Both the position numbers and the translations under genes were made by a program. From the IMG/VR virus record IMGVR_UViG_2585427767_000006: a DNA stretch of 47,449 nucleotides. One strand, written 5' to 3'. Below are positions 236 to 37,318 of the stretch, piece after piece. This DNA is from a virus. Its lineage: Duplodnaviria; Heunggongvirae; Uroviricota; Caudoviricetes. Each line of letters starts with the position of its first letter. Position 1 is the stretch's first letter. A model generated the notes under the pieces. That model was not told where the DNA came from and did no database searches. It saw only the letters and a program-made list of their open reading frames with translations.

Positions 236-405
236 AACCGCAGCACGTTCCTGCATACGACGTGTCTGCGGCATAATCCCAATGATTACTCCCTGACAGG
301 ATTTGCAGGCCACTCAATATCAGGTGCAGTTGATGTATCAACACGATTCAACAATACCCGATATTTATTCCATGCCTCCAGCAACGATCTTTCTTCCTCC
401 GTTGC
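236..405. repeat. Direct repeat copy 1 (~170 bp), derived from the 3' end of tfa
   Basis: Sequence from AACCGCAGCACGTTC through TTCTTCCTCCGTTGC recurs at 1286..1454 with roughly 85-90% identity judged by eye (offset ~1050 bp). Confidence 0.7.
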
Positions 406-555
406 GATTTCCAGATCTACAGCATCCTGCAGTGGCGCAATATACTCACTGAATTCCTGGATGTAGAACTGTGTGGTGACGGTCTTCCAGCCATTCGGCT
501 CCTGCTGTATCGAAGCATACCAGGCTATTTCAATATCGCTATGCTGCGGCAGCAT
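286..555 (-). pseudogene. tfa: Tail fibre assembly protein Tfa, C-terminal fragment only
   Basis: C-terminal ~55 aa ([54 protein letters not shown]) closely match the C-terminus of lambda Tfa; the N-terminal half of a ~194-aa Tfa is absent. Confidence 0.6.
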
Positions 556-1285: not shown

Positions 1286-1454
1286 AACCGCAGCACGTTC
1301 TTGCTTAAGACGTGCTGCGGCATAATCCCAATGATTACTCCCTGACAGGGTTCGTAGGCCACTCAATATCAGGTGCAGTTGATGTATCAACACGGTTCAG
1401 CAGCATCCGATACTTTTTCCAGGCTTCCAGCAACGGGGTTTCTTCCTCCGTTGC
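1286..1454. repeat. Direct repeat copy 2, containing a second tfa 3' remnant (approx 1335..1470, minus strand, no start codon)
   Basis: Minus-strand translation gives ...[36 protein letters not shown], a Tfa C-terminus; the 5' part of the repeat forms an 11-bp dyad CCGCAGCACGT-N11-ACGTGCTGCGG. Confidence 0.65.
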
Positions 1455-1473: not shown

Positions 1474-1767
1474 TCACCCACGATTAACCAACAGCCAGAC
1501 CAGCAGACACGCCACCACCGGCACAGCAAAATCCATCAGGCTTGCCACATCCCATGCACGTGTATCAAAACCGCCCCACCACGGCATATTCATTCGCTTG
1601 CCATGCCCGAACATTTCAATCCAGCGATATTCTGCCTGGGTATGTTCACGCGCAATGAAGAACGTACAACCGGCTATCGCTCCGTAAGCCCAGTTTCCGG
1701 TAAAAAGACCAACCAGTATCTGCGCAGCCACAGCACAAAGTGCATGAAGTAAGGGGCTTATATCCAT
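1474..1767 (-). CDS. Small integral membrane protein (97 aa), last gene of the stf-coupled cassette
   Basis: Two or three hydrophobic segments (AVAAQILVGLFTGNWAYGAIAG; FAVPVVACLLVWLLV); strong SD AAAGGAGGAA 5 nt upstream of the ATG, 12 nt after the stop of the preceding gene. Confidence 0.5.
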   Translation of the reverse strand: MDISPLLHALCAVAAQILVGLFTGNWAYGAIAGCTFFIAREHTQAEYRWIEMFGHGKRMNMPWWGGFDTRAWDVASLMDFAVPVVACLLVWLLVNRG

Positions 1768-1779
1768 TATTTCCTCCTT

Positions 1780-2058
1780 TCAGCTCCATTCCCGAAGCGG
1801 TGTTTCCAGCTCCACGACATAATCAGAGAATACAGAAACATCAAACAAGTCATCAAGAATGCGAATGTTGACAAAATAACCGTCATTCCGGACACAGACA
1901 GGTTCTCCCTCTTCTGTTACCCCTGTTTCTGTGTAGGTGAAACCAATTTCATCGACTAACAGTTTATTCTGGAGGTCTTCATCCTCCTCCCAGTCAAGAG
2001 ATGACAGGAAGGATTTAAACTCTCTGTTACCAGGAAATTTCAAAGTTAAATCTTTCAT
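1780..2058 (-). CDS. Small acidic protein (92 aa), translationally coupled to stf; putative tail-fibre accessory/chaperone
   Basis: ATG overlaps the stf stop (ATGA) and is preceded by SD AAGGAGG inside the stf 3' end; acidic composition (DWEEDEDLQ). Confidence 0.5.
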   Translation of the reverse strand: MKDLTLKFPGNREFKSFLSSLDWEEDEDLQNKLLVDEIGFTYTETGVTEEGEPVCVRNDGYFVNIRILDDLFDVSVFSDYVVELETPLREWS

Positions 2059-4079
2059 ACTGCCTCCTTGATTTGCCTGTCATTTAATTCTTTAAACCAG
2101 ACTCTGAAATTTCTGATGTGTCCAAACAAATGACGCGTTCCTGCTGCGGTCTGCCCACCAAACCGGTACGATGTTGCTGTAATTCCAAATATTTTACCAT
2201 TAAGGTTTGTTGTATAATTACCATTGCATATTGCATTTACTGATAAATCAGATTTAGCTCTCACACCCACAATGAACCTTTCTCCATCTGAGGCAATTTG
2301 TGGCTGAACCATTCCTACGTTGGCGCTTATCTTTCCTGTTGAAACAAACCCCAGCGATAAATAATTATCATCAATACTGTGCCCTCCAACATCAAATATC
2401 CTTGGCGCAACATTGGGCGGTGTACTCCAGCTCCTGCTTACTTCGCACAATACCGTAAAAGGCCTTGTTGACAGGTTATTCTGCGATGGGATAGTAACTA
2501 CATCACTTGCGCGTGTTGTTGGCATTGTAGTTACAATAAATGACGATGCCGTATTGCCCAGTTCAATTTGCGGCGTCGTCATGGTTAATGTTGAGTCATC
2601 ATAGAATGGCTCATTACTTATTTTGTTTGACATATAAAAAGCACAGTTAACGGTATCAATATCCGTATTAGCTGTATAAGTGGACTCATAGTAAGTCCAC
2701 TCACCCTGTTGTTCAGCTTTGGCCGTTATAAGGGATGTATTACCGCTTACTGTTGCAATCCGGGTATCCAGATCAAGATAAGAGTCAGCAGAGAAGGTAT
2801 CTGTTCCACCAATAATAACTGAAACTCTTAACCTGCATCGTGCTTTAGCGCCTTTAACCCGGCACGAAAAAGTGAAACATTCACCACTTGCCAGCGGGAA
2901 TCTGTCTGCTGCAACCACACCATGCACAGTATAGCCACCTGTTGTTCCCACTATACTTTCCGTGGGTGTCACCGTGGCATAATTGAACCCCCGTTTATCA
3001 GTGCCAAATGTTTTATTCAGTGCGGAATGAACAGTCCATGAGTCTGGTTTATTTGAGTTCCTCAGATAATTTGTCCTCTGTCCTTCAATCAATAAGCCAT
3101 CGCGCTCAAATCGCGGTTCATCAACTTCAGCAAGCTTGAGTTGGCCGGACTTATTAATATACGTTGCTGTTGAAGCACGTTTAAACTTAACAATCTTGTC
3201 GCCTGGCATTGTTATTTCATCGTCACCTATAACAATCTTTTTATATGATGGCGAAAAACCCGTAATCATATCCAGTGAATCGTTAAACGGTATCCACACA
3301 TCAGGCAGCGGCGGCACTATATTCACATAGGGCTCTGCAGTCACTTCCGCTGCGGCTTCTGCGCGGTCTGCCGCCTTTTCAGCTCGTGTCGCTGCCGACA
3401 GAGCCTCATCCTTTTTCTGCCCGGCCGTTGTTGCGTCTGCTGCGGCCTCCCGCGCTTTTGTGGTGGCGATTCCGGCATTCTCAGCGGCTGACTCTGCATT
3501 ACGGCGGGAAGCCTCTTCACTGCCTGCGGAGGCTTCCTCTGACGCACGGGCATTTGTCTCTGAACGTTCTGCCGCTGTTGCTGCATTTTGTGCGGCTGTT
3601 TTTGAAGAAGCTGCCGCTTTCGCGCTGTTACCTGCATTCGTCTCTGATGTTTTCGCCGCGTTCCTGGACGATGCCGCTGCTGTTTCTGATTTCTTTGCTG
3701 CCGCTGCGCTCTGAGAGGCGGCTTCAGCGTTGCGTGCCACCTCTTCCACCATCTTTTCAAAACGATACAGTGCCTCCGGACGAACATCATCTTCTGTTGC
3801 AGCGCCCAGAAAATCATTCAATGTCCCCGGCTTAGAATCCTCATACACGGTGATGGCCCCGGCATGTGAAGGCGGAAAACCTTCAACCAGCAGGATAACG
3901 CTGTACTGGCCATACTCGACATCCATGCTGTAACGTCCGGCTTCATCCGGATTTTCTGAGGCCACCGTGTTCACCACAACCGTGGTGCTGTTACGTTTTG
4001 CTTTGAGCTGAATGGTGCAGTTCTGTATTGGTTTTCCCGCACCATCTTTCAGCACACCTGAGATTTTTACTGCTGCCAT
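2055..4079 (-). CDS. stf: Side tail fibre protein Stf
   Basis: N-terminus MAAVKISGVLKDGAGKPIQNCTIQLKAKRNSTTVVVNTV... matches lambda Stf; Ala/Ser/Glu-rich repeat region follows; C-terminal part is divergent. ORF-track start 4085 is GTG; ATG at 4079 aligns with lambda. Confidence 0.85.
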   Translation of the reverse strand: MAAVKISGVLKDGAGKPIQNCTIQLKAKRNSTTVVVNTVASENPDEAGRYSMDVEYGQYSVILLVEGFPPSHAGAITVYEDSKPGTLNDFLGAATEDDVRPEALYRFEKMVEEVARNAEAASQSAAAAKKSETAAASSRNAAKTSETNAGNSAKAAASSKTAAQNAATAAERSETNARASEEASAGSEEASRRNAESAAENAGIATTKAREAAADATTAGQKKDEALSAATRAEKAADRAEAAAEVTAEPYVNIVPPLPDVWIPFNDSLDMITGFSPSYKKIVIGDDEITMPGDKIVKFKRASTATYINKSGQLKLAEVDEPRFERDGLLIEGQRTNYLRNSNKPDSWTVHSALNKTFGTDKRGFNYATVTPTESIVGTTGGYTVHGVVAADRFPLASGECFTFSCRVKGAKARCRLRVSVIIGGTDTFSADSYLDLDTRIATVSGNTSLITAKAEQQGEWTYYESTYTANTDIDTVNCAFYMSNKISNEPFYDDSTLTMTTPQIELGNTASSFIVTTMPTTRASDVVTIPSQNNLSTRPFTVLCEVSRSWSTPPNVAPRIFDVGGHSIDDNYLSLGFVSTGKISANVGMVQPQIASDGERFIVGVRAKSDLSVNAICNGNYTTNLNGKIFGITATSYRFGGQTAAGTRHLFGHIRNFRVWFKELNDRQIKEAV

Positions 4080-4095
4080 ATCCACTCCACAAAAA

Positions 4096-4117
4096 AGCCC
4101 GCCTGAACCGGCGGGCT
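4096..4117 (-). terminator. Intrinsic terminator downstream of lom
   Basis: Perfect 8-bp stem AGCCCGCC/GGCGGGCT with 6-nt loop, followed on the minus strand by a run of 6 U. Confidence 0.6.
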
Positions 4118-4143: not shown

Positions 4144-4743
4144 TCAGAACTTATAACCGACACCCACGATGAAACCGTCAGTGCGCCAGTCGCCACTGCC
4201 GGAGCCTTCATAAGCAATATCAATGGCCACGGATTCGGTCGGGTTAAACTGCACGCCAGCTCCCCACGCCAGAGACGTGTTGCTGTGGCGATCGTCATCA
4301 CTTCCGGTCAGCACATCGTGCGTTTTCCCCTTGTTGTCAGTTACGCGGAGATAATCCCCGGAGAACGTCGAAACACGGCTGTAAGCCACACCTGCCATCG
4401 CATAAGCACTGAACCATTCATTCACGCGTACAGATGGCCCCGCCATCATGCTGAACCAGCGGTTACGCACTGAATCTTCATGCCAGCGGGTATCGCTGTA
4501 ATGCGTTCTTTGCTCATCTTTGGCATTGGCATAACTGAATGACGTCACCAGCCCCAGCGTGTCCGTAAATTCATAACGGTATTTCACGTTAATGCCCTTC
4601 AGGTCATCACTGCCTGGCATATCAGTATGGGTCTGAAGATACCCGGCGCTTAGTGTGGACTGATGCTCTGCTGCGCTCGCTGGCGTACCAGCGGCAACCA
4701 GCCAGACTACTGCGGACAGAATAACAGCACATAATTTACGCAT
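4144..4743 (-). CDS. lom: Outer membrane protein Lom (Ail/PagC/OmpX family)
   Basis: 199-aa protein with signal peptide and beta-barrel ending in C-terminal F; matches lambda Lom; SD GAGAGG upstream. Confidence 0.9.
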   Translation of the reverse strand: MRKLCAVILSAVVWLVAAGTPASAAEHQSTLSAGYLQTHTDMPGSDDLKGINVKYRYEFTDTLGLVTSFSYANAKDEQRTHYSDTRWHEDSVRNRWFSMMAGPSVRVNEWFSAYAMAGVAYSRVSTFSGDYLRVTDNKGKTHDVLTGSDDDRHSNTSLAWGAGVQFNPTESVAIDIAYEGSGSGDWRTDGFIVGVGYKF

Positions 4744-4810: not shown

Positions 4811-7800
4811 TCAGCTAATCGTGATGCCTGCAGTGGCTTTCTTCATCACAACAACCAGCAAATCGCTGATACTTGCTGTGGGATACCAGCCATTTACCAG
4901 CCATGCTGACACCGAAAACTCCAGTGTCATGTGACCGTGACCGGCAGGCATATCAATAACGCCACTGTAAATCAGCGTATTATCCAGCGCGGTACGGTTA
5001 TAAATTTCAGCACCGTTTTTCCGCACTATCAGACGGCATGAGGAGTAAATATCAGTATGCTCTCTCTCATGCTTAGCGCCACTGAATGCCACCGCCGGAA
5101 TAACAATTTGCCGGTCAAACGGCTGATCGTCATAAACCCTGACGGTAATGGTCCCTGATGGCCACCGCTCCGGTGCTCGGGAGTCCCGGGGGAAAGCTTT
5201 ACCCACTGTTTTAACGAGATCGCCTTCAATCTGGTTCGCGGACAGTTTTCCCAGAACCCGGCAGTTCTCGTTAATCGTGACGTTGTTGAGCGTCCCGGAG
5301 TTCGCATTCACGTTACCGCTGATATCGGCATTTTTCGCCGTCAGCCGCCCGTCCGGTGTCAGGGAAAATGCCGGAGGATTACCGCCGCTGGTAATGGTGG
5401 GAGCCGTCAGATATTTCAGGAACACTTCGTTCATGAATATCTGATCGCCCTGACCAACAAACATCGGCTTTGTGTTGCCATTCGCAGGATTAACCATCGC
5501 AATCCTGTCCGCCGCCAGCAGCACCTGACTCTGCATGCCGTCAGGGGTGTTCTCAATACCGGCACCAATACCCGCGATATAAAGGCGTCCGTCCTGCATC
5601 TGCTGCAGCTTCACAGCCCACATGCTGTTCAGGTTATTATTTGTATCAACCTGAACTTTCTGTATCTGCTGGATTGCCGCACTCTGATTTTCCAGTTTTT
5701 TATTGACGGTCTGCGTGATTTCATTGCTGACATTCGTAATGGACGTCCTGATTTCAGCCAGGTCCGGCGCAAGCTGACCGTTATCAATCTGCGTCCACAG
5801 CTCCTGAGCCAGATGGCTTTTCCCTATCTCGCCTTTGAAAAAATCCAGATAGCCGGATGCATCATCACTCGGCTGGCCAACAGCCTCCACAAATGCCGAT
5901 TTGCCAACGGTGTTCACACTGCGGATGTAAAAATAATAATCATGGCCCGGTTTGATATTGATACTGGCAGCTATCCAGTACAGCGCCGTGCCAAGATAAC
6001 GCGCGCTGGTTTCAACCTGCCTGATATCCGCAATCCGATTTTCCGAGAACCAGAACTCAAACTGTACCGTCGGATCATAAACCGCAAGATGCGGCGTGGC
6101 GGTTATCTGAAAATAGCCCGGCGTCAGCTCAATCCGCGATGGCGCTGCCGGTGCGGCAATCCGGAACGATACCGACGCCGGATCGCCCTGCTGCCCCCAC
6201 GCATTTACCGCCCGGACTGTCAGACTGTAATTTCCCAGAGCCAGCTGCCTGAAGCGGTATGTGGTTTCCGTCGTCCGGGCCGTGCTGACCAGCCGCTCAC
6301 TGCCGTCATCCGCTGCCACGGTCAGGCGAAGCATAAAGCTCACGCCCTTCACCACCTTCGGCGTATCCCAGCGCGCCAGCACCTGGTATTCCCCGCTGTC
6401 TGCGGTGACTTCGGCGGTCAGGTGCTGCACCGCTGGCGGCGTGACACCATTCACCGTGCCGCTCTGGTCGCCGTCAAAGTGCGCCCCGTTATCCACGATG
6501 GCTTCTTTTTCCGGTACATGCTGCACGGCAGTGATGGCATACGTGCCGTCATCGTTCTCACGGATACTCACACAGCGGAACAGGCGCTGGCGCAGCGTCG
6601 GCAGCTTCAGCCCCCACACGCTGTATTCGGCAACGCCGTCAGGAACCCGACTCACTTTCACCTTCACGCCGTCGGTGACGGACTGAACCTCCACGCTGAC
6701 CGGACTCCCCTGCCCGTCAACCAGGCTTATCAGCGTGGTACCGGAGGATGGCAGCGTGATTTCACGGTCGAGCGTCAGCGTCCGGGTCTGGCTGTTCACC
6801 GCCAGCACGCGCCCGCCAATGCTGATCCCCGCATAGTCATCATCGCAGATTTCAATAACATCACCCGGTACATGGCGAAGCCCTTCTGCGCCGACGCTGA
6901 AATCCACGGTCTGCGTTTCCAGCAGTTCTGTTTTAATCAGCCACAGCCCGGCGCGGTGTGCCTGCCCCCGGCTGGTACAGCCAAAGGCATCCATCTTCGT
7001 GACGTTACGACCGTAACGGGCAATGGCCTGCGTGTCCTCCACAAGCTCTGTCGCCGTCTCCCAGCCGTTATCCGGGTCAATCCAGTTCACCTCAACGGCA
7101 TTATGACGGTCCTTCAGGGCGCTGAAGCTGTAGCGGAACGGCGCGCCATCATCCGGCATCACCACATTACTGCGGTTATAGGTCCACACCTTATCCGATG
7201 GCCGGTCCTGCACGAACGTCAGCGTCTGCCCGTTCCATACCGGCATACAGCGCATCGCCGAGCAGAAATCACTGAGCACATCCCACGCCTTGCGCTGCGT
7301 GGTCAGCCAGGCATTACAGGTGATGCGCGGCTCCGTGCCACCAAAGCCATCCGGCACCGACTGGTCGCAATTCTGGCCGATGACATACAGCGCCCATTTG
7401 TCCACATCCGCCGCACCGAGACGCTTCCCCATGCCGTAGCGCGGATGGGTCAGCATATCCCACAGACACCAGGCCATGTTGTTGCTGTATGCCGGTTTAA
7501 ACGTCCCGTCCCAGATACCGCTGTATTGCCGCGTCTGCGGGTTATAGTTCGACGGCACCTGCAGAATACGCCCGCGCAGATGATAATTACGGCTCACCTG
7601 CTGGCTGCCGAACTGCTCCGAGTCCACCTGCACGCCGACCAGTGCCGTGTTCGGGTAGCACTGTTTCACATCGATGATTTCGGTGTATGACGACCAGAGC
7701 GTTTTGTTCTGCAGCTGGTCTGTGGTGCTGTCCGGCGTCATCCTGCGCATCCGGATATTAAACGGGCGCGGCGGCAGGTTATCCACCACCACTGAGGCCA

Positions 7801-8290
7801 GATACTGCGAGGTGGTTTTACCCTTAATGGTGATGTCTTTTTCCGTCACCCAGCCACCGTTACGTTGTATCTGAACCAGCAGGCGGACTTCCGATGGATT
7901 CCTGTCCCCCTTTGAGGTGGTTTCCACCAGTGCCTGCACACCGAAGGTAAAGCGCAGACGGTCGATGTTTGCCGACGTGATGGTGCGGGTGATCGGCGTG
8001 TCATATTTCACTTCCGTACCCAGCACCGTCTCGGAACCGGAGGATTCAAATCCCTCCGGCGGAGTCTGCTCCTGCTCACCGGCCCGGAACACCACCGTGA
8101 CGCCGGATATATTGGTATTCCCCTCACTGTCCAGCACCGGCGTACTGTTCAGCAGCACGCTTTTTAATCCATCCACCGGACCTTCAACCGGCCCTTCGCT
8201 GATGGCATCGATCACACTCAGCAGCTGCGTGGATTTCAGGTTGTCCTTCGCTTCGCGCGGGGTATGCCCCTTACTGCTTCCTTTACCCAT
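4811..8290 (-). CDS. J: Host specificity / central tail fibre protein J
   Basis: 1159-aa protein in the lambda J position directly after I; fibronectin-like middle and C-terminal receptor-binding region. Confidence 0.95.
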
Positions 8291-27553: not shown

Positions 27554-27712
27554 CTGGTACATACCCCGTCTCCCGTTATCCGGAAGCTGACAACAATAAA
27601 AAAAGCCACCAGTTAAGTACTGATGGCTCTGATAACTCATGCAGGCATCTCAGACGACCCACTGACACTACCGGTGAGTTTAACGATACCTTCCATTTGA
27701 CTGGCTCACTTT

Positions 27713-29566
27713 TTATGATGATGCCGGTGCATTTATCTCCAGCACCAGACTTTCTATCTCAACGCCATACGCTGCATTTTTGGTAATATCCGTCAGCGTC
27801 AGCGCATTCAGCCCCAGTGTCAGACTGTCTTTTATGACCTGGAATGCCGGGCCAGCCACTCCATTCAGTTTCGGAGTAACCGTGGCACTGCCGGCGGTGA
27901 ACACCAGCTCCAGCGTCTGCCAGTCGTTACTGTAATTCCCGAACTCGCCCAACTTTGTGTTTCCGGCTTTCTTGTGATGCATCAGATTCAGTTTGCCGTC
28001 TGTGGTCTGGGTGAAGAACGACATCAGGAACGGGTTACCAGTCCCGGTCATCGCCACGACGTCAGGTAACGCTACATCGGTATACAGATAAATTCCCAGA
28101 CCGAACTGGTTGTTGGTCAGTGCGCCTGACAGTCGAAACTTACAGCTCAGTCTGCCACCCCGTGTCAGCAGGGAGACTGCGTCATCCACCGGGCGCGTCA
28201 GGGACCAGGCTTTATTGCTCTGCTTGGTGATCTTAAATACACCATCTGACAACTGAATTCCGCCATTCTTAATGCTCCAGCCCTGCGCAGCAGCATCTCC
28301 GGCTGTCGGCAACAGGGAGATTGTGCGTACGGATGCATCTTCAGACGGCCCCGATGGCGTGTCGCCGCCGGGCGAGGGTTTGATTTCCGGTGCCTTACCA
28401 CTAATGAAGGCTAAGGTGCGACCGGCTACGTTCAGAATAGCAGTTGCCATACGATCGGGAATAATGCCACGACGCGCCCATGAGCTGAAATGCGTCGGGC
28501 GATTTGATGATACCCAGTTTTTGTTCGTTCGGGATGCCGAACCGTAATAACCAGACCCGGCAATATCAGGATCTTCTGACGGGTTGTTTGTCGGTGTATT
28601 AACTCCGCTACCATCGGTCATAAAGGGAACAAAATAAATCTGCTGGGATTCTTTACCTTTATATGCACCATATACCACTTCATATTGCGTACCGTGTTCT
28701 TGTTTCCACGCGTATGTCGTGTCGCCACAAATCCAGGGGACTGATGCCGGACTTCCACCGTGACACTGCGCTGCCAGCCCGGCAAGGTCAGCACGGAACT
28801 GCTGTACCATTGCAAGAAATGCTGCTGGCTGCTGGGCGTAACTGGCATTCGTCATATCGAATTCCCCCTGCATCCAGCATATCGCCAGCAAAACGTTTTT
28901 CGGGTTTTTCTGCAATGCTGCCTTCGTGCGGAAAAGCAGATCCTGATATAACGGCTTACCCACTCCCCAGCGAGCCGAATCCTGACTGGCTCCCGTGGAC
29001 TCGCTGAATGTCCCCTCCGTGCCCTGGGTGAATGCCGAACCACCACGACAGCATGGTACCAGCAGGATCCCCGCATTATTAGGGATATACGGAAGCAGTT
29101 TTTTGGCAATATGTAAGCCCTGTCCGACACAGCCGTACTGCCCTTTGCTCAGGTCAGCCCGGGGATGGTTAATCGTACTCATATCCTGAACATCATGCAG
29201 ACAATGGTCAGCAGGAATGATGTCGTTAAATACGCATACTTCACCACCGGGAGTCACTGTGTTACGACGGGCCAGTTGCTTAATGCGCGGATGGGGCGCA
29301 TCGTATGAATCCGGAAGCGGAAGCCCTTCACCGTAAGCCATGGCATTGGATTGCCCGGCCAGTACGATGACGTAGTACCACTCCGGCTCAGTTGCACCAC
29401 TGACGACCACATCACCTTCTGCTGCAATCGCCTGCATCAGGGTATAAGGGGTTATGGCCACCGGACTACCAAACGGCTGCCAGCCCTCTTTCAGTTTATG
29501 TGTCAGCTTTTCCGCAAGATCTGACGGCGACGCCGCCCTGACAACATCATAGTGTTTAAATGCCAT
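27713..29566 (-). CDS. nanS: Prophage 9-O-acetyl-sialate esterase NanS-p (DUF1737 N-domain plus SASA esterase domain)
   Basis: N-terminus MAFKHYDVVRAASPSDLAEKL and the position directly upstream of the holin match the nanS-p gene of Stx-type phages; start at ATG 29566 (SD GGTGGAAAG) rather than ORF-track 29581. Confidence 0.8.
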   Translation of the reverse strand: MAFKHYDVVRAASPSDLAEKLTHKLKEGWQPFGSPVAITPYTLMQAIAAEGDVVVSGATEPEWYYVIVLAGQSNAMAYGEGLPLPDSYDAPHPRIKQLARRNTVTPGGEVCVFNDIIPADHCLHDVQDMSTINHPRADLSKGQYGCVGQGLHIAKKLLPYIPNNAGILLVPCCRGGSAFTQGTEGTFSESTGASQDSARWGVGKPLYQDLLFRTKAALQKNPKNVLLAICWMQGEFDMTNASYAQQPAAFLAMVQQFRADLAGLAAQCHGGSPASVPWICGDTTYAWKQEHGTQYEVVYGAYKGKESQQIYFVPFMTDGSGVNTPTNNPSEDPDIAGSGYYGSASRTNKNWVSSNRPTHFSSWARRGIIPDRMATAILNVAGRTLAFISGKAPEIKPSPGGDTPSGPSEDASVRTISLLPTAGDAAAQGWSIKNGGIQLSDGVFKITKQSNKAWSLTRPVDDAVSLLTRGGRLSCKFRLSGALTNNQFGLGIYLYTDVALPDVVAMTGTGNPFLMSFFTQTTDGKLNLMHHKKAGNTKLGEFGNYSNDWQTLELVFTAGSATVTPKLNGVAGPAFQVIKDSLTLGLNALTLTDITKNAAYGVEIESLVLEINAPASS

Positions 29567-30966: not shown

Positions 30967-31073
30967 TTAACAGAACTTTTATTTTTGACAAACATATAAT
31001 ATTTTCAACAATATCCTGAGCCAGGTATATTTCAGTATAAGGCTCTGCCGGAAGGAATCTGGAAGAATGAATA

Positions 31074-31150
31074 TGGCGCGCTGTACTGGATTCGAACCAG
31101 TGACCGATTGCTTAGAAGGCAATTGCTCTGTCCGGCTGAGCTAACAACGC
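31074..31150 (-). tRNA. tRNA-Arg (anticodon UCU)
   Basis: Minus-strand 77-nt sequence GCGTTGTTAGCTCAGCCGGACAGAGCAATTGCCTTCTAAGCAATCGGTCACTGGTTCGAATCCAGTACAGCGCGCCA folds as a cloverleaf with anticodon loop CUUCUAA and T-loop TTCGAAT. Confidence 0.9.
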
Positions 31151-31250
31151 TGAATACCGATAATGGACCGCCATCGGGGACCCGCCCCCGCACCAACAAC
31201 CCTGTTATCGTGTCGTCTGCTCTTCCTGATAAGCTAATGGCGGTTTGTGA

Positions 31251-31326
31251 TGGTGGCCCTTGCTGGATTTGAACCAGCGACCTGGCGATTATGAGTCGCT
31301 CGCTCTCACCACTGAGCTAAAGGGCC
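31251..31326 (-). tRNA. tRNA-Ile2 (anticodon CAU, ileX/ileZ-like; could alternatively be Met)
   Basis: Minus-strand 76-nt sequence GGCCCTTTAGCTCAGTGGTGAGAGCGAGCGACTCATAATCGCCAGGTCGCTGGTTCAAATCCAGCAAGGGCCACCA; 7-bp acceptor stem, anticodon CAU, very close to E. coli ileX. Confidence 0.85.
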
Positions 31327-34001: not shown

Positions 34002-34116
34002 CGGTTGTCTCTGCTGGCGCAGCAGGTGCCAGTTGTTCAGGCTGGCGTGCGAATTGTAAACCAGAATGCCAGGAAAAAACAAAACCCGCCGAAGCGGGTT
34101 TTTTGTACATATAGAA

Positions 34117-35214
34117 TTATGGTATTAATCCAGCTGTTCTTGCTTTATTAATATAATTTTTACAGTGGTTAGCCAAATACTCTGCAAACTTGCATGGAAG
34201 TGCATTTCCTATTATGACGCATACTTTATCCATCAAAGCTGTATCAAACACATAGTTATCAGGAAAAGTCTGTAGTCTAGCAGCTTCTCGAACAGAAATA
34301 GTACGCGTATCCTCAGGATGTCCATATCGCCCACGGCTTAAAGTTGTGCACCCACCTGTAATCGTTGGCGATACGTCATCCCAAAGCATACGACCATAAA
34401 CATTACTAAATCCTTTATAGTCGCCTTTATGGCAATCTGGACGGAGTTCTTCGGGAATACACTCCCAAGACATCCCTGGAACAGCCGCTTGTAACCGCTT
34501 TATATTGATCTCAGACAAATCCCTAACAATATGCCAACTCGACAATGGAAACTTCCCTTGCTTCTTAGCCTGTGAAAGAGTTAAGGGTTTTGGCATATCT
34601 CCAATAGCTTCTTTAACAGTTACCCATTTGGGTTTCTCTCTTCCATCCTTAGAGTGTGATCCATCAGGCAATGGGATGGCAAATCCTTTTCCTGCCAACA
34701 GAACAAGCCTTTTTCTGAACTGTGGTACACCAAAGTCAGCTACTTGCAAAACTCCATAATTAACTATGTAACCAAGTTTTTTCAATCTCTCAATTACTGG
34801 CGAAAGAAGATGATTTCCCCGGGAAGCTAATCCAGGAACATTTTCCATCATGATTGCTGATGGATTGGTTTCTTCAACCAACCGTAACATCTCGTTAATC
34901 AATAAATTACGAGGGTCCTCCCTTTTATACTTGGCAGTGAGACTAGTAAATCCTTGACATGGCGGGCACGCAGATAAAAGATCTAAATGTTGCTCAGGGA
35001 TAAGATTTAGGATATCACTCCCCTTTACAAACCGAATATCTTGAACAAAGAGTTTTGTCTCACGATGATTTGCTTGGAAAGTAGCGGCGGCATGTGCGTC
35101 CAGTTCAACGGCAGCTTTGACATCAAACCCGGCCATTTTTAGTCCCATGGTTAGTCCCCCACCACCGCTAAATAGGTCAACTGCATTCAAACTGGTCACT
35201 GTTTTCTCACTCAT
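34117..35214 (-). CDS. DNA cytosine-5 methyltransferase (Dcm-type)
   Basis: Motif I DLFSGGGG, catalytic motif IV PCQGF, motif VI ENV, motif VIII QFRKR; ATG overlaps the upstream gene's stop by 8 nt. Confidence 0.9.
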   Translation of the reverse strand: MSEKTVTSLNAVDLFSGGGGLTMGLKMAGFDVKAAVELDAHAAATFQANHRETKLFVQDIRFVKGSDILNLIPEQHLDLLSACPPCQGFTSLTAKYKREDPRNLLINEMLRLVEETNPSAIMMENVPGLASRGNHLLSPVIERLKKLGYIVNYGVLQVADFGVPQFRKRLVLLAGKGFAIPLPDGSHSKDGREKPKWVTVKEAIGDMPKPLTLSQAKKQGKFPLSSWHIVRDLSEINIKRLQAAVPGMSWECIPEELRPDCHKGDYKGFSNVYGRMLWDDVSPTITGGCTTLSRGRYGHPEDTRTISVREAARLQTFPDNYVFDTALMDKVCVIIGNALPCKFAEYLANHCKNYINKARTAGLIP

Positions 35215-37318
35215 TATTTCCCAACTTCAACTGTTCTGCCTCATCCAAGAATTCTTGGTGAGTTTGAGTTGTCCTCAGCAAGAACCCTGCCCAATCAACG
35301 GGTGTTAGGCGTTTTTCTTCGATGTATGCAGTATAAGCTTTACGACGTGCCCCACTCAAGCGCTCCCCATCACTTACCAGCGTAACGTGAAAATCAGATG
35401 CTATTGATTTAAAATCATTATGTCTCTCATCGTTCAAAAACTCCTCGAATGTTTCGAAGTAATTAATAATACGATCCATTTCATCATTGGAAATATAATG
35501 ATGTGGCTTTTTTATTTCAATTATTTGTAATTTTCCATCCTGACTAAACAATACAAAGTCTGGTCTTTTATTTTTTTTATCAAAATCTATAAGAAATATC
35601 TCCTCACCAGTTTTCTTTTTATAAAATTTTTGAAATTCCCTTTTAAGCGTGGACAACGTTTTATTTGCTGTAACTGGGACCCATTGAGGGTTAACTAGCC
35701 ACGGAGCGGATGCAATTAGATCTTGTAACTCATCTTCTGCTGTATCCTTTGCGTCTTTTAAAGACTCGAGACGCTCAATAATCTGAAGACGCTTTTTGAC
35801 CTTTTGACCAAAACTAACGGTTTCAGCTAGTTGAGCCGTTGCTAAAATATCGTTGAGAACATTGAGCGGTGTATCCGCTTTACTGGAAGCTTCTATTAAC
35901 TTCTCATCTAAGGATTGTAATGGTGCTAACATAATACTTAACTGCACTAAATTCTCGAGTGCATCAGGATCATGTAATTCATCACCTCGTAAAGATTTAC
36001 CCAACAACTTGGCTATTTTTTTAGCCTGTGCTCGCATATCCTTTTGACCGGCTCCAGGGTATGCTTGCTCGACCTTATCCTCCACTTGCGCTAATTCGAA
36101 GAATTGATTCATCATATTATTTCTAAGGGGGTCGCGAGTTATTTTACCCACAAGTAAAATAACTTCTTGCCCCCAATTCTGAAATTGCGTTCCTAAATCA
36201 TCAGACCATAGAATATCCCTTCTATCAGTTTGGATAAGATCTTCTTTTTCGTCTAACCAGTCAGCATGCAACTCACCTACCAAATATGAACGTATAGAGT
36301 GCTCTCCAGTAAAACCAGCTTTTCTATTAAAAACTGCTGTTTGCGCAGCAAACTTACCTCGGCAATAAATTCTAACACCTGCCATTAACTCGTCCTTATA
36401 AGGCTCTTTCGCGTATGCAATCCAACCTAATATCGGGTAAGCTTTCCCTTCATGTTCAAAACCGGCCTTAACAATTGATGAACGCGTGCCGTCAGGATTA
36501 AAAGCCGTATAATCACTTAAATCCGTACAAGAATCTGTCGCAATACTTCCACTCATGGAACGAAATTCAATTTTAGAGTTAGGCATAACAGGAACAGTAA
36601 ACTCTCCGACCTCAACTTCATAGTCAGGATTAGACTTTGTTTTCGAAGTATCAATCAGTTTAATATTCCAGTTTTTACTCTTCACTCCAAAACGTTGTGA
36701 AAGCTGCCGAGATAAATCTTTTATTTCGCTAATTTTTCTATATTCAAAATCACTTAATATTATTTTAGTATAGGTCCTGTCACTTAGTGTGCCGTCTAAA
36801 TCCCCAGTTTCCGGTTTATAAGACACTGCAGTATCATCCATTATTTTTTCTTTATCTAGCTGAATATGAGCAACCTCATACCCTTCCTTTCCATCACGAC
36901 TGATTTTTTCCCCACCGGCACTTATAATCTCGACCCTTTTACAAACACCAAAAGGTGCTAATTTCCCAACGCCTTTCCGTCCCATGACTTTGCGGTGAAA
37001 CACCTTCGAGGTTTCACCTCTTTTTGGATCCTTACGTCTTTCTTTGCCAACAACCAAATAAAAGTTCTGTAGTTCATCAGGCGCCATTCCGACGCCATTA
37101 TCTTCTACTTCTATTGTGACATTTTTTGACCTGACAACACCATCCTGTCTAACAGCCAAGTATTGGCCCATAGGTGCTTTTATAGTGACATTAGTCGCAT
37201 CTGCATCGTAACTGTTAGATACTAATTCGGCTATAACAGCATAAGCCCTGTCATATAATTTCACACCTAATTTATCTACTGTCATCCTTGATATCTGCAT
37301 TTCATATTGACGCGCCAT
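35207..37318 (-). CDS. GHKL (MORC/MutL-like) ATPase fused to a C-terminal PD-(D/E)xK-type nuclease domain; putative restriction/defence nuclease
   Basis: N-box ELVSNSYDADA, G1 DNGVGM, G2 GRKGVGKLAPFG in the first 130 aa; C-terminal IDFD...PDFVLF...IIEIKK nuclease-like signature; SD AAGGA upstream. Confidence 0.7.
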   Translation of the reverse strand: MARQYEMQISRMTVDKLGVKLYDRAYAVIAELVSNSYDADATNVTIKAPMGQYLAVRQDGVVRSKNVTIEVEDNGVGMAPDELQNFYLVVGKERRKDPKRGETSKVFHRKVMGRKGVGKLAPFGVCKRVEIISAGGEKISRDGKEGYEVAHIQLDKEKIMDDTAVSYKPETGDLDGTLSDRTYTKIILSDFEYRKISEIKDLSRQLSQRFGVKSKNWNIKLIDTSKTKSNPDYEVEVGEFTVPVMPNSKIEFRSMSGSIATDSCTDLSDYTAFNPDGTRSSIVKAGFEHEGKAYPILGWIAYAKEPYKDELMAGVRIYCRGKFAAQTAVFNRKAGFTGEHSIRSYLVGELHADWLDEKEDLIQTDRRDILWSDDLGTQFQNWGQEVILLVGKITRDPLRNNMMNQFFELAQVEDKVEQAYPGAGQKDMRAQAKKIAKLLGKSLRGDELHDPDALENLVQLSIMLAPLQSLDEKLIEASSKADTPLNVLNDILATAQLAETVSFGQKVKKRLQIIERLESLKDAKDTAEDELQDLIASAPWLVNPQWVPVTANKTLSTLKREFQKFYKKKTGEEIFLIDFDKKNKRPDFVLFSQDGKLQIIEIKKPHHYISNDEMDRIINYFETFEEFLNDERHNDFKSIASDFHVTLVSDGERLSGARRKAYTAYIEEKRLTPVDWAGFLLRTTQTHQEFLDEAEQLKLGNNE

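What the first reader, a model, noticed from the sequence alone, without database searches (positions are those of the whole stretch)
1474..2058. Two small genes tightly coupled to the 3' end of stf (acidic 92-aa protein and 97-aa membrane protein) replace the usual tfa
The 92-aa gene starts with ATGA overlapping the stf stop and has a perfect SD inside stf; the 97-aa membrane-protein gene follows after 12 nt with another strong SD. Immediately downstream lie only remnants of tfa. So the receptor-binding end of the fibre and its partner genes appear to have been exchanged as a cassette. A membrane protein co-translated with a tail fibre is unusual; it could be an exclusion or immunity protein matched to the fibre's receptor.
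Basis: partly seen in the sequence, partly recalled or inferred. Interest (0 to 1): 0.5.

Follow-up and report, generated by a model that had tools for sequence, protein, structure and literature searches.

The report
Tail-fibre partner genes in a prophage
Two small, real and very common prophage genes follow the side tail fibre gene: one is a dedicated partner of this fibre type, and the other is an uncharacterised membrane protein that trails receptor-binding genes in many unrelated phages and is not matched to the fibre's receptor.

Summary
On the minus strand, stf (2055-4085) ends in an ATGA overlap with a 92-aa acidic gene (1780-2058). A 97-aa three-helix membrane-protein gene (1474-1767) follows after 12 nt. 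Both have AAGGAGG ribosome-binding sites, and tfa remnants lie downstream.

The trio is not rare. Phage 21 has it (CPT_21_22-24), and about 21% of complete E. coli genomes carry the 92+97 pair.

The two small genes are separate modules.
- **92-aa gene (PHROG 1361).** It always follows a fibre gene ending in the same ~420-aa carbohydrate-binding C-terminal module. This holds in lambdoid, T1-like, T5-like (IrisVonRoten gp22-23-24), Seuratvirus and Dhillonvirus phages. It is not a Tfa homologue. It is most likely a trans-acting assembly partner or adaptor of that fibre.
- **97-aa gene (PHROG 1443, no Pfam).** It follows unrelated receptor-binding genes: P22-like tailspikes, P2-like fibres and myovirus tfa. 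Sphingomonadales carry chromosomal copies.

The 97-aa protein stays 99% identical to its phage 21 counterpart while the fibre's receptor-binding region drops to 20-50% identity. A receptor-matched immunity protein is therefore not supported. Its function is unknown; my best guess is an inner-membrane accessory or exclusion-type protein.

The parts
4096..4117 (-). Terminator-like hairpin between lom and stf. Transcription into stf and the two small genes must read through it.
   Evidence: 8-bp stem, 7 GC pairs, T run. That read-through comes from Q-antiterminated late transcription is inferred from what is known of lambda.
2055..4085 (-). stf, the side tail fibre gene. It is one uninterrupted ORF of 676 aa from the GTG at 4085. 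The probable true start is the ATG at 4079, which gives MAAVKISG....
   Evidence: PGAP splits it into two features, but the reading frame is intact.
3684..4073 (-). Stf N-terminal virion-attachment domain (Pfam phage_tail_N, aa 5-134).
   Evidence: E 3.2e-68
2058..3320 (-). Stf C-terminal ~420-aa module (aa 256-676). It contains the NCBIfam GTA_spike_fiber domain and ends in a ConA/galectin-like domain. Lateral fibres of T5-like, T1-like and other siphophages share it.
   Evidence: The last 150 aa hit Laminin_G_3 at E 4e-4, below Pfam's threshold.
2130..3032 (-). Hypervariable, presumed receptor-binding part of Stf (aa ~350-650). It is only 20-52% identical to phage 21 Stf, while the flanking parts are conserved.
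   Evidence: CBM_4_9 hit at aa 445-485 is weak.
2063..2069 (-). Shine-Dalgarno AAGGAGG for the 92-aa gene, inside stf and 4 nt before the ATG.
1780..2058 (-). 92-aa acidic protein gene (PHROG 1361). Its ATG overlaps the stf stop (ATGA). It is the fibre-module partner.
1773..1779 (-). Shine-Dalgarno AAGGAGG for the 97-aa gene, in the 12-nt spacer.
1474..1767 (-). 97-aa three-helix membrane protein gene (PHROG 1443). The loop 40-75 is highly conserved (AREHTQAEYRWI...GxGKRxNMPWWGGFD).
1335..1454 (-). tfa 3' remnant immediately downstream of the 97-aa gene. It matches only the C-terminal ~30-40 codons of a Caudo_TAP protein. I read it as a recombination scar or linker.
   Evidence: The shared similarity with the phage 21-type phages extends to about window 1398.
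286..555 (-). Second tfa remnant. Its 3' part (266-405) is an 89% direct repeat of 1315-1454. The two repeats bracket a methyltransferase moron.

Best explanation
The window is a lambdoid prophage inserted at ompW. Its late operon ends with stf, the 92-aa gene and the 97-aa gene. These are two independent accessory modules attached to the fibre gene.

**(1) Stf and the 92-aa protein.**
- Stf has the usual lambdoid N-terminal attachment domain. Its C-terminal ~420 aa are a carbohydrate-binding module: a GTA-spike-fibre domain followed by a terminal ConA/galectin-like domain.
- This module has neither a Tfa partner nor an S74 intramolecular chaperone.
- The 92-aa acidic protein is its dedicated, translationally coupled partner.
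- It is most likely a trans-acting assembly factor that may stay on the fibre end. In related phages it may help dock a second, distal fibre. That distal fibre gene is absent from this window.

**(2) The 97-aa protein.**
- It is a member of a large uncharacterised family of three-helix inner-membrane proteins.
- The gene sits at the very 3' end of receptor-binding-protein gene clusters, mostly in temperate phages.
- Its conserved, positively charged loop probably faces the cytoplasm.
- It most likely acts on a conserved host inner-membrane or cytoplasmic target. Candidates are blocking entry of superinfecting DNA, or interfering with surface-glycan biogenesis. It does not mask the fibre's own receptor.

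**Shown:** the gene structure, the conservation, the co-occurrence patterns, and the lack of receptor matching.
**Inferred:** the chaperone/adaptor role, the membrane topology, late co-transcription, and any exclusion-type activity.
For: **Anatomy:**

**92-aa gene and the fibre module**
- The 92-aa gene overlaps (ATGA) a fibre gene ending in the same module in every context inspected individually. These are lambdoid, another siphophage prophage (45% identity over the C-terminal 420 aa), T5-like Stokescottia and IrisVonRoten, T1-like tonn and Seuratvirus VogelGryff.
- Most of the 60 listed rows (of 144 phage records) also show a tail or tail-fibre feature under or beside the match.
- The gene after the 92-aa gene in the virulent phages carries Peptidase_S74, so it is a distal fibre with its own chaperone. 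The module-bearing fibre has no such domain.
- PMC11990801 describes IrisVonRoten Gp22 as a proximal fibre with a C-terminal galectin-like domain to which the T-shaped fibre Gp24 attaches.
- In 80 IMG/VR loci, 92-aa copies at least ~88% identical to the window lie directly before the 97-aa gene (41 of 41). Copies at most ~57% identical are separated from it by a 0.7-1.1 kb gene (33 of 33).

**97-aa gene**
- There are 435 family representatives at 50% identity, all small stand-alone proteins.
- No Pfam, NCBIfam or PADLOC family reaches its cut-off.
- R40, E41 and W72 are invariant; H8, Q44, A45, E46 and P83 are nearly so.
- The 40-75 loop carries ~5.7 K/R against ~0.1 in the other loop.
- It lies directly behind a P22-like tailspike with a 4-nt overlap, then int. 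It lies behind tailspike plus O-acetylase, P2-like H fibres, myovirus tfa, a tail spike in Cobetia phage Carin-5, an S74 tailspike in Desulfovibrio and a LamG protein in Chelativorans.
- It is 99% identical to the phage 21 copy despite a diverged Stf receptor region.
- The prophage has its own holin, lysozyme and Rz cassette elsewhere.
Against: - No experiment or multimer model links the 92-aa protein physically to Stf.
- Its sequence class correlates with the presence of a distal fibre gene. That fits an adaptor as well as a chaperone, and it rests on few independent lineages.
- For the 97-aa protein there is no direct functional evidence at all.
- No promoter-like site was found that would give it prophage-state expression: 12-nt spacer, background-level promoter matches. 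That is awkward for a classical lysogen-protecting exclusion gene.
- Chromosomal, non-phage copies exist in Sphingomonadales next to ligA, pnp, CFA synthase and ftsZ. These point to a cellular membrane function that I cannot name.
- A few copies sit in large phages that may be virulent.
- A Comamonas prophage repeats the trio at great divergence: a LamG-type tail protein, a ~95-aa ORF and a 98-aa membrane protein. Some functional tie to this fibre type therefore cannot be excluded.
Confidence: 0.6

Rival explanations
1. The 97-aa membrane protein is an exclusion or immunity protein matched to the receptor of this fibre. The three genes move together as one cassette.
For: - The gene is the last of the tail-fibre operon. 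This is the position that cor occupies in phi80/N15-type phages (my own knowledge).
- Trios with the same order recur in E. coli and, at great divergence, in Comamonas and Pantoea prophages.
Against: - The 97-aa protein is 99% identical between the window and phage 21, while the Stf receptor-binding region is 20-52% identical.
- The same family, at 60-83% identity, follows P22-like tailspikes, P2-like fibres and myovirus tfa genes with unrelated receptor-binding domains.
- The fibre+92 unit occurs without it in the virulent phages inspected.
- The conserved loop is predicted to face the cytoplasm, not the outer membrane where the receptor is.
- There is no lipobox, and Cys11 is not conserved.
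Confidence: 0.08
2. The 92-aa protein is mainly a structural adaptor or connector that docks a second, distal fibre onto the galectin-like end of the proximal fibre, giving a branched or extended lateral fibre. In the window the distal fibre gene has been lost and the adaptor is a leftover or a cap.
For: - In T5-like, T1-like, Seuratvirus and Tritos-type lambdoid phages the 92-aa gene lies between the proximal fibre gene and an S74-bearing distal fibre gene.
- The 92-aa sequence class correlates perfectly with the presence of a distal gene in 74 IMG/VR loci.
- Distal fibres of 234 aa and 346 aa share their first 32 residues, which looks like a docking peptide.
- Branched LtfA/LtfB fibres are documented in T5-like phages (PMC4728585, PMC10713586).
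Against: - The window and phage 21 types have no distal fibre, yet they keep the 92-aa gene intact. Synonymous changes (37) are as frequent as non-synonymous ones (34) against a 63%-identical copy that also lacks a distal fibre.
- In DT57C both LtfA and LtfB carry S74 domains, so that system is not the same as this module.
- In podovirus AnnaHegner the distal fibre is Gp10 and the proximal fibre Gp9. Consecutive gene numbers suggest no small gene between them; I did not inspect that locus.
Confidence: 0.25
3. The 97-aa protein is a late lysis-timing factor, holin-like or antiholin-like, expressed with the fibre genes.
For: - It is a small protein with three hydrophobic helices and is co-transcribed with late genes.
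- T7 gene 17.5 and T4 gene t are holins encoded right after tail-fibre genes (my own knowledge).
- One of 99 family members gives a weak Phage_holin_8 hit, E 0.0036.
Against: - The prophage has a complete class II holin, lysozyme and Rz cassette at 25.6-27.6 kb.
- The protein has no charged C-terminal tail; it ends ...LLVNRG.
- It has an unusually long, strongly conserved 35-residue loop.
- Non-phage chromosomal copies exist in Sphingomonadales.
- There is no credible holin family match.
Confidence: 0.1
4. The 97-aa gene is a selfish or neutral passenger. It is kept because, together with the conserved 3' end of stf and the tfa remnant, it provides a conserved flank for homologous exchange of receptor-binding segments.
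For: - The receptor-binding part of stf is swapped between conserved flanks that include both small genes.
- tfa 3' remnants recur as 140-nt repeats.
Against: - Protein-level purifying selection holds across Escherichia, Aeromonas, Comamonas and alphaproteobacteria. Several residues are invariant, and synonymous changes are about as frequent as non-synonymous ones.
- The gene is conserved in contexts that lack these flanks.
Confidence: 0.05

Closest known systems
Phage 21 genes CPT_21_22 (side tail fibre), CPT_21_23 (hypothetical) and CPT_21_24 (putative membrane protein); also the Lambda_ev/1H12/PhiR47_2/Perceval phages
   Same: Same gene order, the same ATGA overlap and the same short spacer. 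The 92-aa protein is 93-100% identical and the 97-aa protein 99% identical. The DNA is 98% identical over 2.7 kb in PhiR47_2 and the Lambda_ev phages.
   Different: The central receptor-binding part of Stf differs from phage 21 (20-52% identity). Phage 21 has sitABCD downstream, where the window has tfa remnants and a methyltransferase. None of these genes has an assigned function. The phage 21 genome paper does not mention the tail fibre or these genes.
Two-component lateral tail fibres of T5-like phage IrisVonRoten (gp22 proximal fibre, gp23, gp24 T-shaped distal fibre) and equivalents in T1-like, Seuratvirus and Dhillonvirus phages
   Same: The window Stf C-terminal 420 aa are 43% identical to gp22, and 53% identical (over 583 aligned residues) to Stokescottia's fibre. 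The 92-aa protein is 47% identical to gp23 and 50% identical to Stokescottia's copy. The gene overlap is the same.
   Different: The window has a lambdoid phage_tail_N attachment end and no distal S74 fibre gene. The virulent phages have no 97-aa membrane-protein gene.
Lambda Stf-Tfa (Caudo_TAP, PF02413) fibre-chaperone pairs
   Same: A small gene immediately 3' of the fibre gene, co-oriented and co-inherited with the fibre's C-terminal part. The position is the one tfa normally occupies.
   Different: There is no sequence similarity to Caudo_TAP or to any tfa PHROG. The protein has half the size and a different predicted fold with no PDB relative. The fibre end is a ConA-like globular module, not the lambda/T4 gp37-type tip.
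Cor (phi80, N15, mEp167) and T5 Llp receptor-masking exclusion lipoproteins
   Same: Small envelope proteins encoded next to receptor-binding genes.
   Different: Cor and Llp are outer-membrane lipoproteins tied to one receptor, FhuA (my own knowledge). The 97-aa protein has no lipobox. It is predicted to be polytopic in the inner membrane, and it is not tied to one receptor-binding protein type.
Inner-membrane superinfection-exclusion proteins (T4 Imm, P22 SieA, HK97 gp15)
   Same: Small inner-membrane proteins that act on a conserved step, DNA entry, rather than on the receptor (my own knowledge). This would fit the lack of receptor matching and the cytoplasm-facing conserved loop.
   Different: No sequence or fold relationship could be tested: those families were not recovered by any search here. 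No prophage-state promoter was found, and cellular homologues exist.

Membership tests
PHROG 1361 (phage protein family of unknown function) - 92-aa protein | Full-length profile match | tested here: met
   E 1.6e-39, residues 1-91 against profile 1-91 of 92
PHROG 1443 (phage protein family of unknown function) - 97-aa protein | Full-length profile match | tested here: met
   E 1.1e-57, residues 1-96 against profile 1-96 of 97
Tfa / Caudo_TAP tail fibre assembly proteins (PF02413) - 92-aa protein | Sequence match to PF02413 or to tfa PHROGs (105, 188, 136) | tested here: not met
   no hit at E 0.1 or better. The downstream remnants at 286-555 and 1335-1433 do match, which serves as a positive control.
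Tfa / Caudo_TAP tail fibre assembly proteins (PF02413) - 92-aa protein | Encoded immediately 3' of the fibre gene and inherited together with the fibre's C-terminal domain | tested here: met
Tfa / Caudo_TAP tail fibre assembly proteins (PF02413) - 92-aa protein | Binds the fibre tip and is required for trimer folding | not testable with these tools
   No multimer prediction or experiment was available.
Two-component (proximal + distal) lateral tail fibre loci, IrisVonRoten gp22-24 type | Proximal fibre ending in the ConA/galectin-like module | tested here: met
   (43% identity over 435 aa; Laminin_G_3 E 4e-4, sub-threshold); description of Gp22 in PMC11990801
Two-component (proximal + distal) lateral tail fibre loci, IrisVonRoten gp22-24 type | Overlapping ~92-aa gene after the proximal fibre gene | tested here: met
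Two-component (proximal + distal) lateral tail fibre loci, IrisVonRoten gp22-24 type | Distal fibre gene with a Peptidase_S74 intramolecular chaperone after the small gene | tested here: not met
   In the window the 97-aa gene follows after 12 nt. The same holds in 41 of 41 closely related IMG/VR loci.
Receptor-masking exclusion lipoproteins (Cor, Llp) - 97-aa protein | Lipoprotein signal peptide with a conserved lipobox cysteine | tested here: not met
   The N-terminus MDISPLLHALC has no basic n-region, and Cys11 is not conserved in the family.
Receptor-masking exclusion lipoproteins (Cor, Llp) - 97-aa protein | Association with one receptor-binding protein or receptor type | tested here: not met
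Receptor-masking exclusion lipoproteins (Cor, Llp) - 97-aa protein | Blocks adsorption or infection when expressed | not testable with these tools
   Needs an experiment.
Holins - 97-aa protein | Small protein with 1-4 transmembrane helices | tested here: met
Holins - 97-aa protein | Encoded in the lysis cassette next to the endolysin; charged C-terminal tail; match to a holin family | tested here: not met
   The lysis cassette is at 25.6-27.6 kb with its own class II holin. The C-terminus is ...LLVNRG. No holin family matches the protein, and only 1 of 99 relatives gives a weak hit.
Inner-membrane superinfection exclusion proteins (Imm/SieA/gp15 type) - 97-aa protein | Expression in the lysogen or early in infection | tested here: inconclusive
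   No promoter-like site was found between stf and the gene, and matches in the region are at background level. No expression data are available.
Known anti-phage defence systems (PADLOC) | Profile match for either small protein | tested here: not met
   no families

The most novel reading that the evidence does not exclude
The 97-aa protein represents a large, unnamed family: 435 clusters at 50% identity, no Pfam entry, and cellular copies in Sphingomonadales. These are inner-membrane proteins that temperate podo-, sipho- and myoviruses place at the end of their receptor-binding-protein genes. On this reading it has a new, receptor-independent function tied to glycan-targeting fibres and spikes. 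It could be a new class of superinfection-exclusion or DNA-entry blocker. It could instead inhibit surface-glycan biogenesis, protecting progeny or lysogens. Separately, the 92-aa protein would be a new, non-Tfa, non-S74 class of tail-fibre chaperone or adaptor used by at least five siphophage lineages.
Probability: 0.3. Interest if true: 0.6.

Novelty: new variant of a known kind. Interest (0 to 1): 0.35.

Why it matters
Side and lateral tail fibres decide which O-antigen or capsule types a phage can reach, and engineers swap them to retarget phages and phage-derived particles. If the 92-aa protein is the obligatory partner of this widespread fibre module, it must be carried along in any chimeric fibre design.

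The conserved flanks also matter for engineering. The start of the C-terminal module, its last ~25 residues and the two small genes mark natural crossover points for swapping the receptor-binding region.

The 97-aa family is carried by about a third of complete E. coli genomes. It is expressed from an operon that every induction turns on, yet it has no name or function. Finding its target would fill a gap in the annotation of thousands of prophages, and it may reveal a new exclusion or envelope-remodelling mechanism.

As it stands, this particular window adds nothing beyond what phage 21 and many prophages already carry.

Tried and rejected
- **Family libraries.** Pfam, NCBIfam and PADLOC scans of both small proteins gave nothing above noise. 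The only hit was PhoR at E 0.042 for the 97-aa protein. A Pfam scan of 99 divergent 97-aa relatives gave only scattered chance hits.
- **Solved structures.** A PDB sequence search with the Stf C-terminal module found no relative.
- **Literature.** Searches for phage 21 side tail fibre work and for the phage 21 accession found no functional study of these genes. The DT57C papers describe branched fibres, but both of its fibres carry S74 domains, so it is only an analogy.
- **Distant trios.** hhalign of the 92-aa profile against the small ORFs between fibre and membrane-protein genes in Comamonas was weak for L026 (E 0.012, probability 3.6%) and gave nothing for L003. I do not claim homology.
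- **Neighbourhood summary.** The alignment-mode PHROG/Pfam summaries of upstream neighbours were too diffuse to give a clean percentage of receptor-binding-protein adjacency. I relied on individually inspected loci instead.
- **Viral contig scans.** The scan with the broad alignment A3 failed for lack of a conserved stretch. The scan with A1 returned only close E. coli relatives among the best 80.
- **Rejected ideas.** Lipoprotein: no lipobox. Main holin: a separate lysis cassette exists. Chance ORFs: the genes are conserved.
Full report
**What is in the window.** The window is a complete lambdoid prophage of E. coli inserted at ompW. It is 100% identical to several sequenced strains. On the minus strand the late operon ends with J (4811-8290) and lom (4144-4743). 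A terminator-like hairpin follows (4096-4117), and then stf, the 92-aa gene and the 97-aa gene.
- The stf frame ends ...GCA GTA TGA. The ATG of the 92-aa gene shares the ATGA at 2055-2058.
- AAGGAGG lies at 2063-2069, inside stf.
- After the 92-aa stop (1780-1782) come 12 nt containing a second AAGGAGG (1773-1779), then the ATG of the 97-aa gene.
- The 92-aa protein has pI 4.05.
- The 97-aa protein is predicted with pLDDT 93 as three long helices.
- Only C-terminal fragments of tfa follow.

**Are the genes real, and how common are they?** Both are full-length members of PHROG families of unknown function, 1361 and 1443. Both have hundreds of homologous clusters. Synonymous codon differences are about as frequent as non-synonymous ones between divergent copies. 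The identical arrangement is annotated in the classic phage 21 as side tail fibre, hypothetical protein and putative membrane protein. It is also in a dozen sequenced lambda-like phages at 98% DNA identity. The 585-nt pair is present at 80% coverage or more in 1127 of 5426 complete E. coli genomes. At least the 97-aa half is present in 1903. I found no paper that assigns either gene a function.

**The fibre.** Stf has the lambdoid N-terminal phage_tail_N domain. From residue ~256 (PLPDVWIPFNDSLDMITGF...) to the end it is a ~420-aa module. The module carries the NCBIfam 'GTA spike fibre' domain. It gives a weak CBM_4_9 hit and ends in a sub-threshold ConA/LamG-like domain.

The same module ends the lateral fibre of unrelated siphophages.
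- A prophage with T5-like tail genes: 45% identity.
- The T5-like phages Stokescottia and IrisVonRoten: 53% and 43% identity.
- T1-like tonn and Seuratvirus VogelGryff, where the module is inferred from the fibre-then-92-aa gene order rather than aligned.
- A second lambdoid type, Tritos and many O157-like prophages: 41% identity.

The BASEL paper describes IrisVonRoten Gp22 as a proximal fibre with a galectin-like C-terminal domain onto which the T-shaped fibre Gp24 attaches (PMC11990801).

**The 92-aa gene goes with that module.**
- In every one of these backgrounds a 91-93-aa homologue follows the fibre gene, usually with the same 4-nt overlap.
- A tblastn search finds it in 144 phage records. 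Most of the listed rows show a tail-fibre feature under or beside the match.
- It has no similarity to Tfa (Caudo_TAP) or to any other family.
- It folds confidently into a small alpha/beta protein with no PDB relative.
- Its structural relatives are uncharacterised Caudovirales proteins.
- The module-bearing fibre has no S74 intramolecular chaperone. The gene that follows the 92-aa gene in the virulent phages and in Tritos-type prophages does have one, so it is a distal fibre.

The simplest reading is that the 92-aa protein is the trans-acting partner of the ConA-ended fibre. It takes the place, but not the fold, of Tfa.

An adaptor role remains a serious rival.
- In 80 IMG/VR loci, copies at least ~88% identical to the window's lie directly before the 97-aa gene (41 of 41).
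- Copies at most ~57% identical are followed by a 0.7-1.1 kb distal-fibre gene (33 of 33).
- Two distal fibre types share their first 32 residues.

Against a pure adaptor, the window and phage 21 types have no distal fibre yet keep the gene under selection.

**The 97-aa gene is a separate module.** A profile search of 1.8 billion representatives finds 435 clusters, all stand-alone proteins of about 90-130 aa. Across them R40, E41 and W72 are invariant. H8, Q44, A45, E46 and P83 are nearly so. Within the closer set the loop AREHTQAEYRWI..FGxGKRxNMPWWGGFD is almost unchanged from Escherichia to Aeromonas and Comamonas. No Pfam, NCBIfam or PADLOC family reaches its cut-off, and no fold relative was found.

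The gene sits at the 3' end of receptor-binding gene clusters of many kinds.
- After a P22-like tailspike with a 4-nt overlap and just before int (JEP4).
- After a tailspike plus an LPS O-acetylase (611R6).
- After P2-like H fibres in Aeromonas and Leclercia.
- After the tfa of myovirus phiHAP-1.
- Between tailspike genes of Cobetia phage Carin-5.
- After an S74/pectate-lyase tailspike in Desulfovibrio and a LamG protein in Chelativorans.
- After a giant J in Comamonas.
- After the extra distal fibre in Tritos-type prophages.

It is absent from the virulent T1-like, T5-like and Seuratvirus phages that carry the fibre+92 unit.

In Sphingomonadales and related MAGs it is a chromosomal gene. There it lies next to ligA (three times), pnp, CFA synthase (twice), ftsZ and others, with no phage genes nearby.

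**Is it matched to the fibre's receptor?** No. Between the window and phage 21, Stf residues ~350-650 are 20-52% identical while the flanks are 74-100% identical. The 92-aa protein is 93% identical and the 97-aa protein 99%. Receptor-binding segments are thus exchanged inside a conserved frame, and the two small genes form the 3' side of that frame.

The family-wide charge distribution is ~5.7 K/R in the 40-75 loop against ~0.1 in the 22-27 loop. By the positive-inside rule this places the conserved loop in the cytoplasm, far from an outer-membrane receptor. There is no lipobox. The prophage has its own class II holin, lysozyme and Rz cassette, so the protein is not the holin.

**Most likely mechanism and its limits.** I infer, but have not shown, that Q-dependent late transcription reads through the hairpin at 4096-4117. 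All three proteins would then be made together by translational coupling.

The 92-aa protein most likely assists folding or assembly of the ConA-ended fibre and may remain at its end (about 0.5). Alternatively it docks a distal fibre, which is missing here (about 0.25).

The 97-aa protein inserts in the inner membrane and acts on a conserved host component. Four observations make an exclusion-type or envelope-remodelling accessory the best guess:
- its predominantly temperate distribution;
- its position at the operon end and moron hot-spot;
- its neighbourhood with O-antigen-modifying genes in P22-like phages;
- its independence from receptor type.

My confidence in that specific activity is low, about 0.3-0.4. 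The lack of an obvious lysogenic promoter and the cellular homologues both argue for caution. Rivals are a lysis-timing role (0.1) and a passenger flank (0.05).

**Novelty and verdict.** The sequences are already in databases and in a textbook phage, so this window adds no new member of note. What is not in the literature I could search falls into two points. First, a non-Tfa, non-S74 partner gene is shared by lateral fibres of at least five siphophage lineages. Second, one unnamed membrane-protein family trails receptor-binding genes across podo-, sipho- and myoviruses and has cellular relatives. The cassette idea is half right. The receptor-matched immunity idea is not supported. Interest is moderate to low for this locus itself, and higher for the 97-aa family as a target for experiments.

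Noticed in passing
[not shown]
   Followed up: partly
window 2055-4085 (-): RefSeq/PGAP annotates stf as two features: a pseudogene N-terminal fragment (3713-4079) and a 405-aa 'phage head spike fiber domain' CDS (2055-3269). The 676-codon reading frame is uninterrupted. The alanine-rich repeat region between them is probably what misleads the annotation. The likely true start is the ATG at 4079, not the GTG at 4085.
   Followed up: partly
window ~2130-3032 (-), Stf aa ~350-650: The central part of the Stf C-terminal module is hypervariable: 20-52% identity to phage 21, Tritos-type and L009-type fibres. The segment before it (aa ~250-350) and the last ~25 residues are conserved. This suggests natural crossover points for receptor-binding-domain exchange.
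   Followed up: partly
loci L049-L072 (Sphingomonadales and other alphaproteobacterial contigs), e.g. L069 5004-5282, L060 4941-5324: Chromosomal, non-phage copies of the 97-aa family lie downstream of ligA (three loci), pnp and other housekeeping genes, and upstream of CFA synthase (two loci, 3-nt spacing in L060) and ftsZ. This suggests a cellular membrane function from which the phage copies derive.
   Followed up: partly
L026 3551-5294 (Comamonas kerstersii); also L027 and L032: A prophage repeats the trio at great divergence. A ~390-aa tail protein hits the same PHROGs (5939/1419) as the Stf C-terminal module. An overlapping 95-aa ORF follows, with only weak similarity to the 92-aa profile (hhalign E 0.012). 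The 98-aa membrane protein comes last, 63% identical.
   Followed up: partly
L015 4286-4987 and L080 3418-4455: Distal fibre proteins of 234 aa and 346 aa, encoded between the 92-aa-type and 97-aa genes in other prophages, share their first ~32 residues. These match positions 1-32 of PHROG 4563. This may be a common docking peptide.
   Followed up: no
L078 2876-5292 (Escherichia phage 4A7): In phages 4A7, D2, 1W and 3W the stf gene is interrupted by a three-ORF transposase insertion, while the 92-aa and 97-aa genes downstream remain intact (90% and 99% identical).
   Followed up: no
window 34116-37317 (-): A DNA cytosine methyltransferase gene overlaps a 703-aa 'ATP-binding protein' gene in the early region of the prophage. 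This may be a restriction-modification-like or defence gene pair.
   Followed up: no
window 27712-29565 (-): A 617-aa SASA-family carbohydrate esterase gene lies directly upstream of the holin. This is the position of NanS-type esterases in Stx-phage-like late regions. Two tRNA genes (Arg, Ile) lie at 31073-31325, downstream of the antiterminator gene.
   Followed up: no
L094-L173 (IMG/VR loci): In roughly half of the 80 viral contigs the predicted prophage ends 3 nt after the stop of the 97-aa gene. Prophage-boundary callers therefore treat it as the last phage gene.
   Followed up: no
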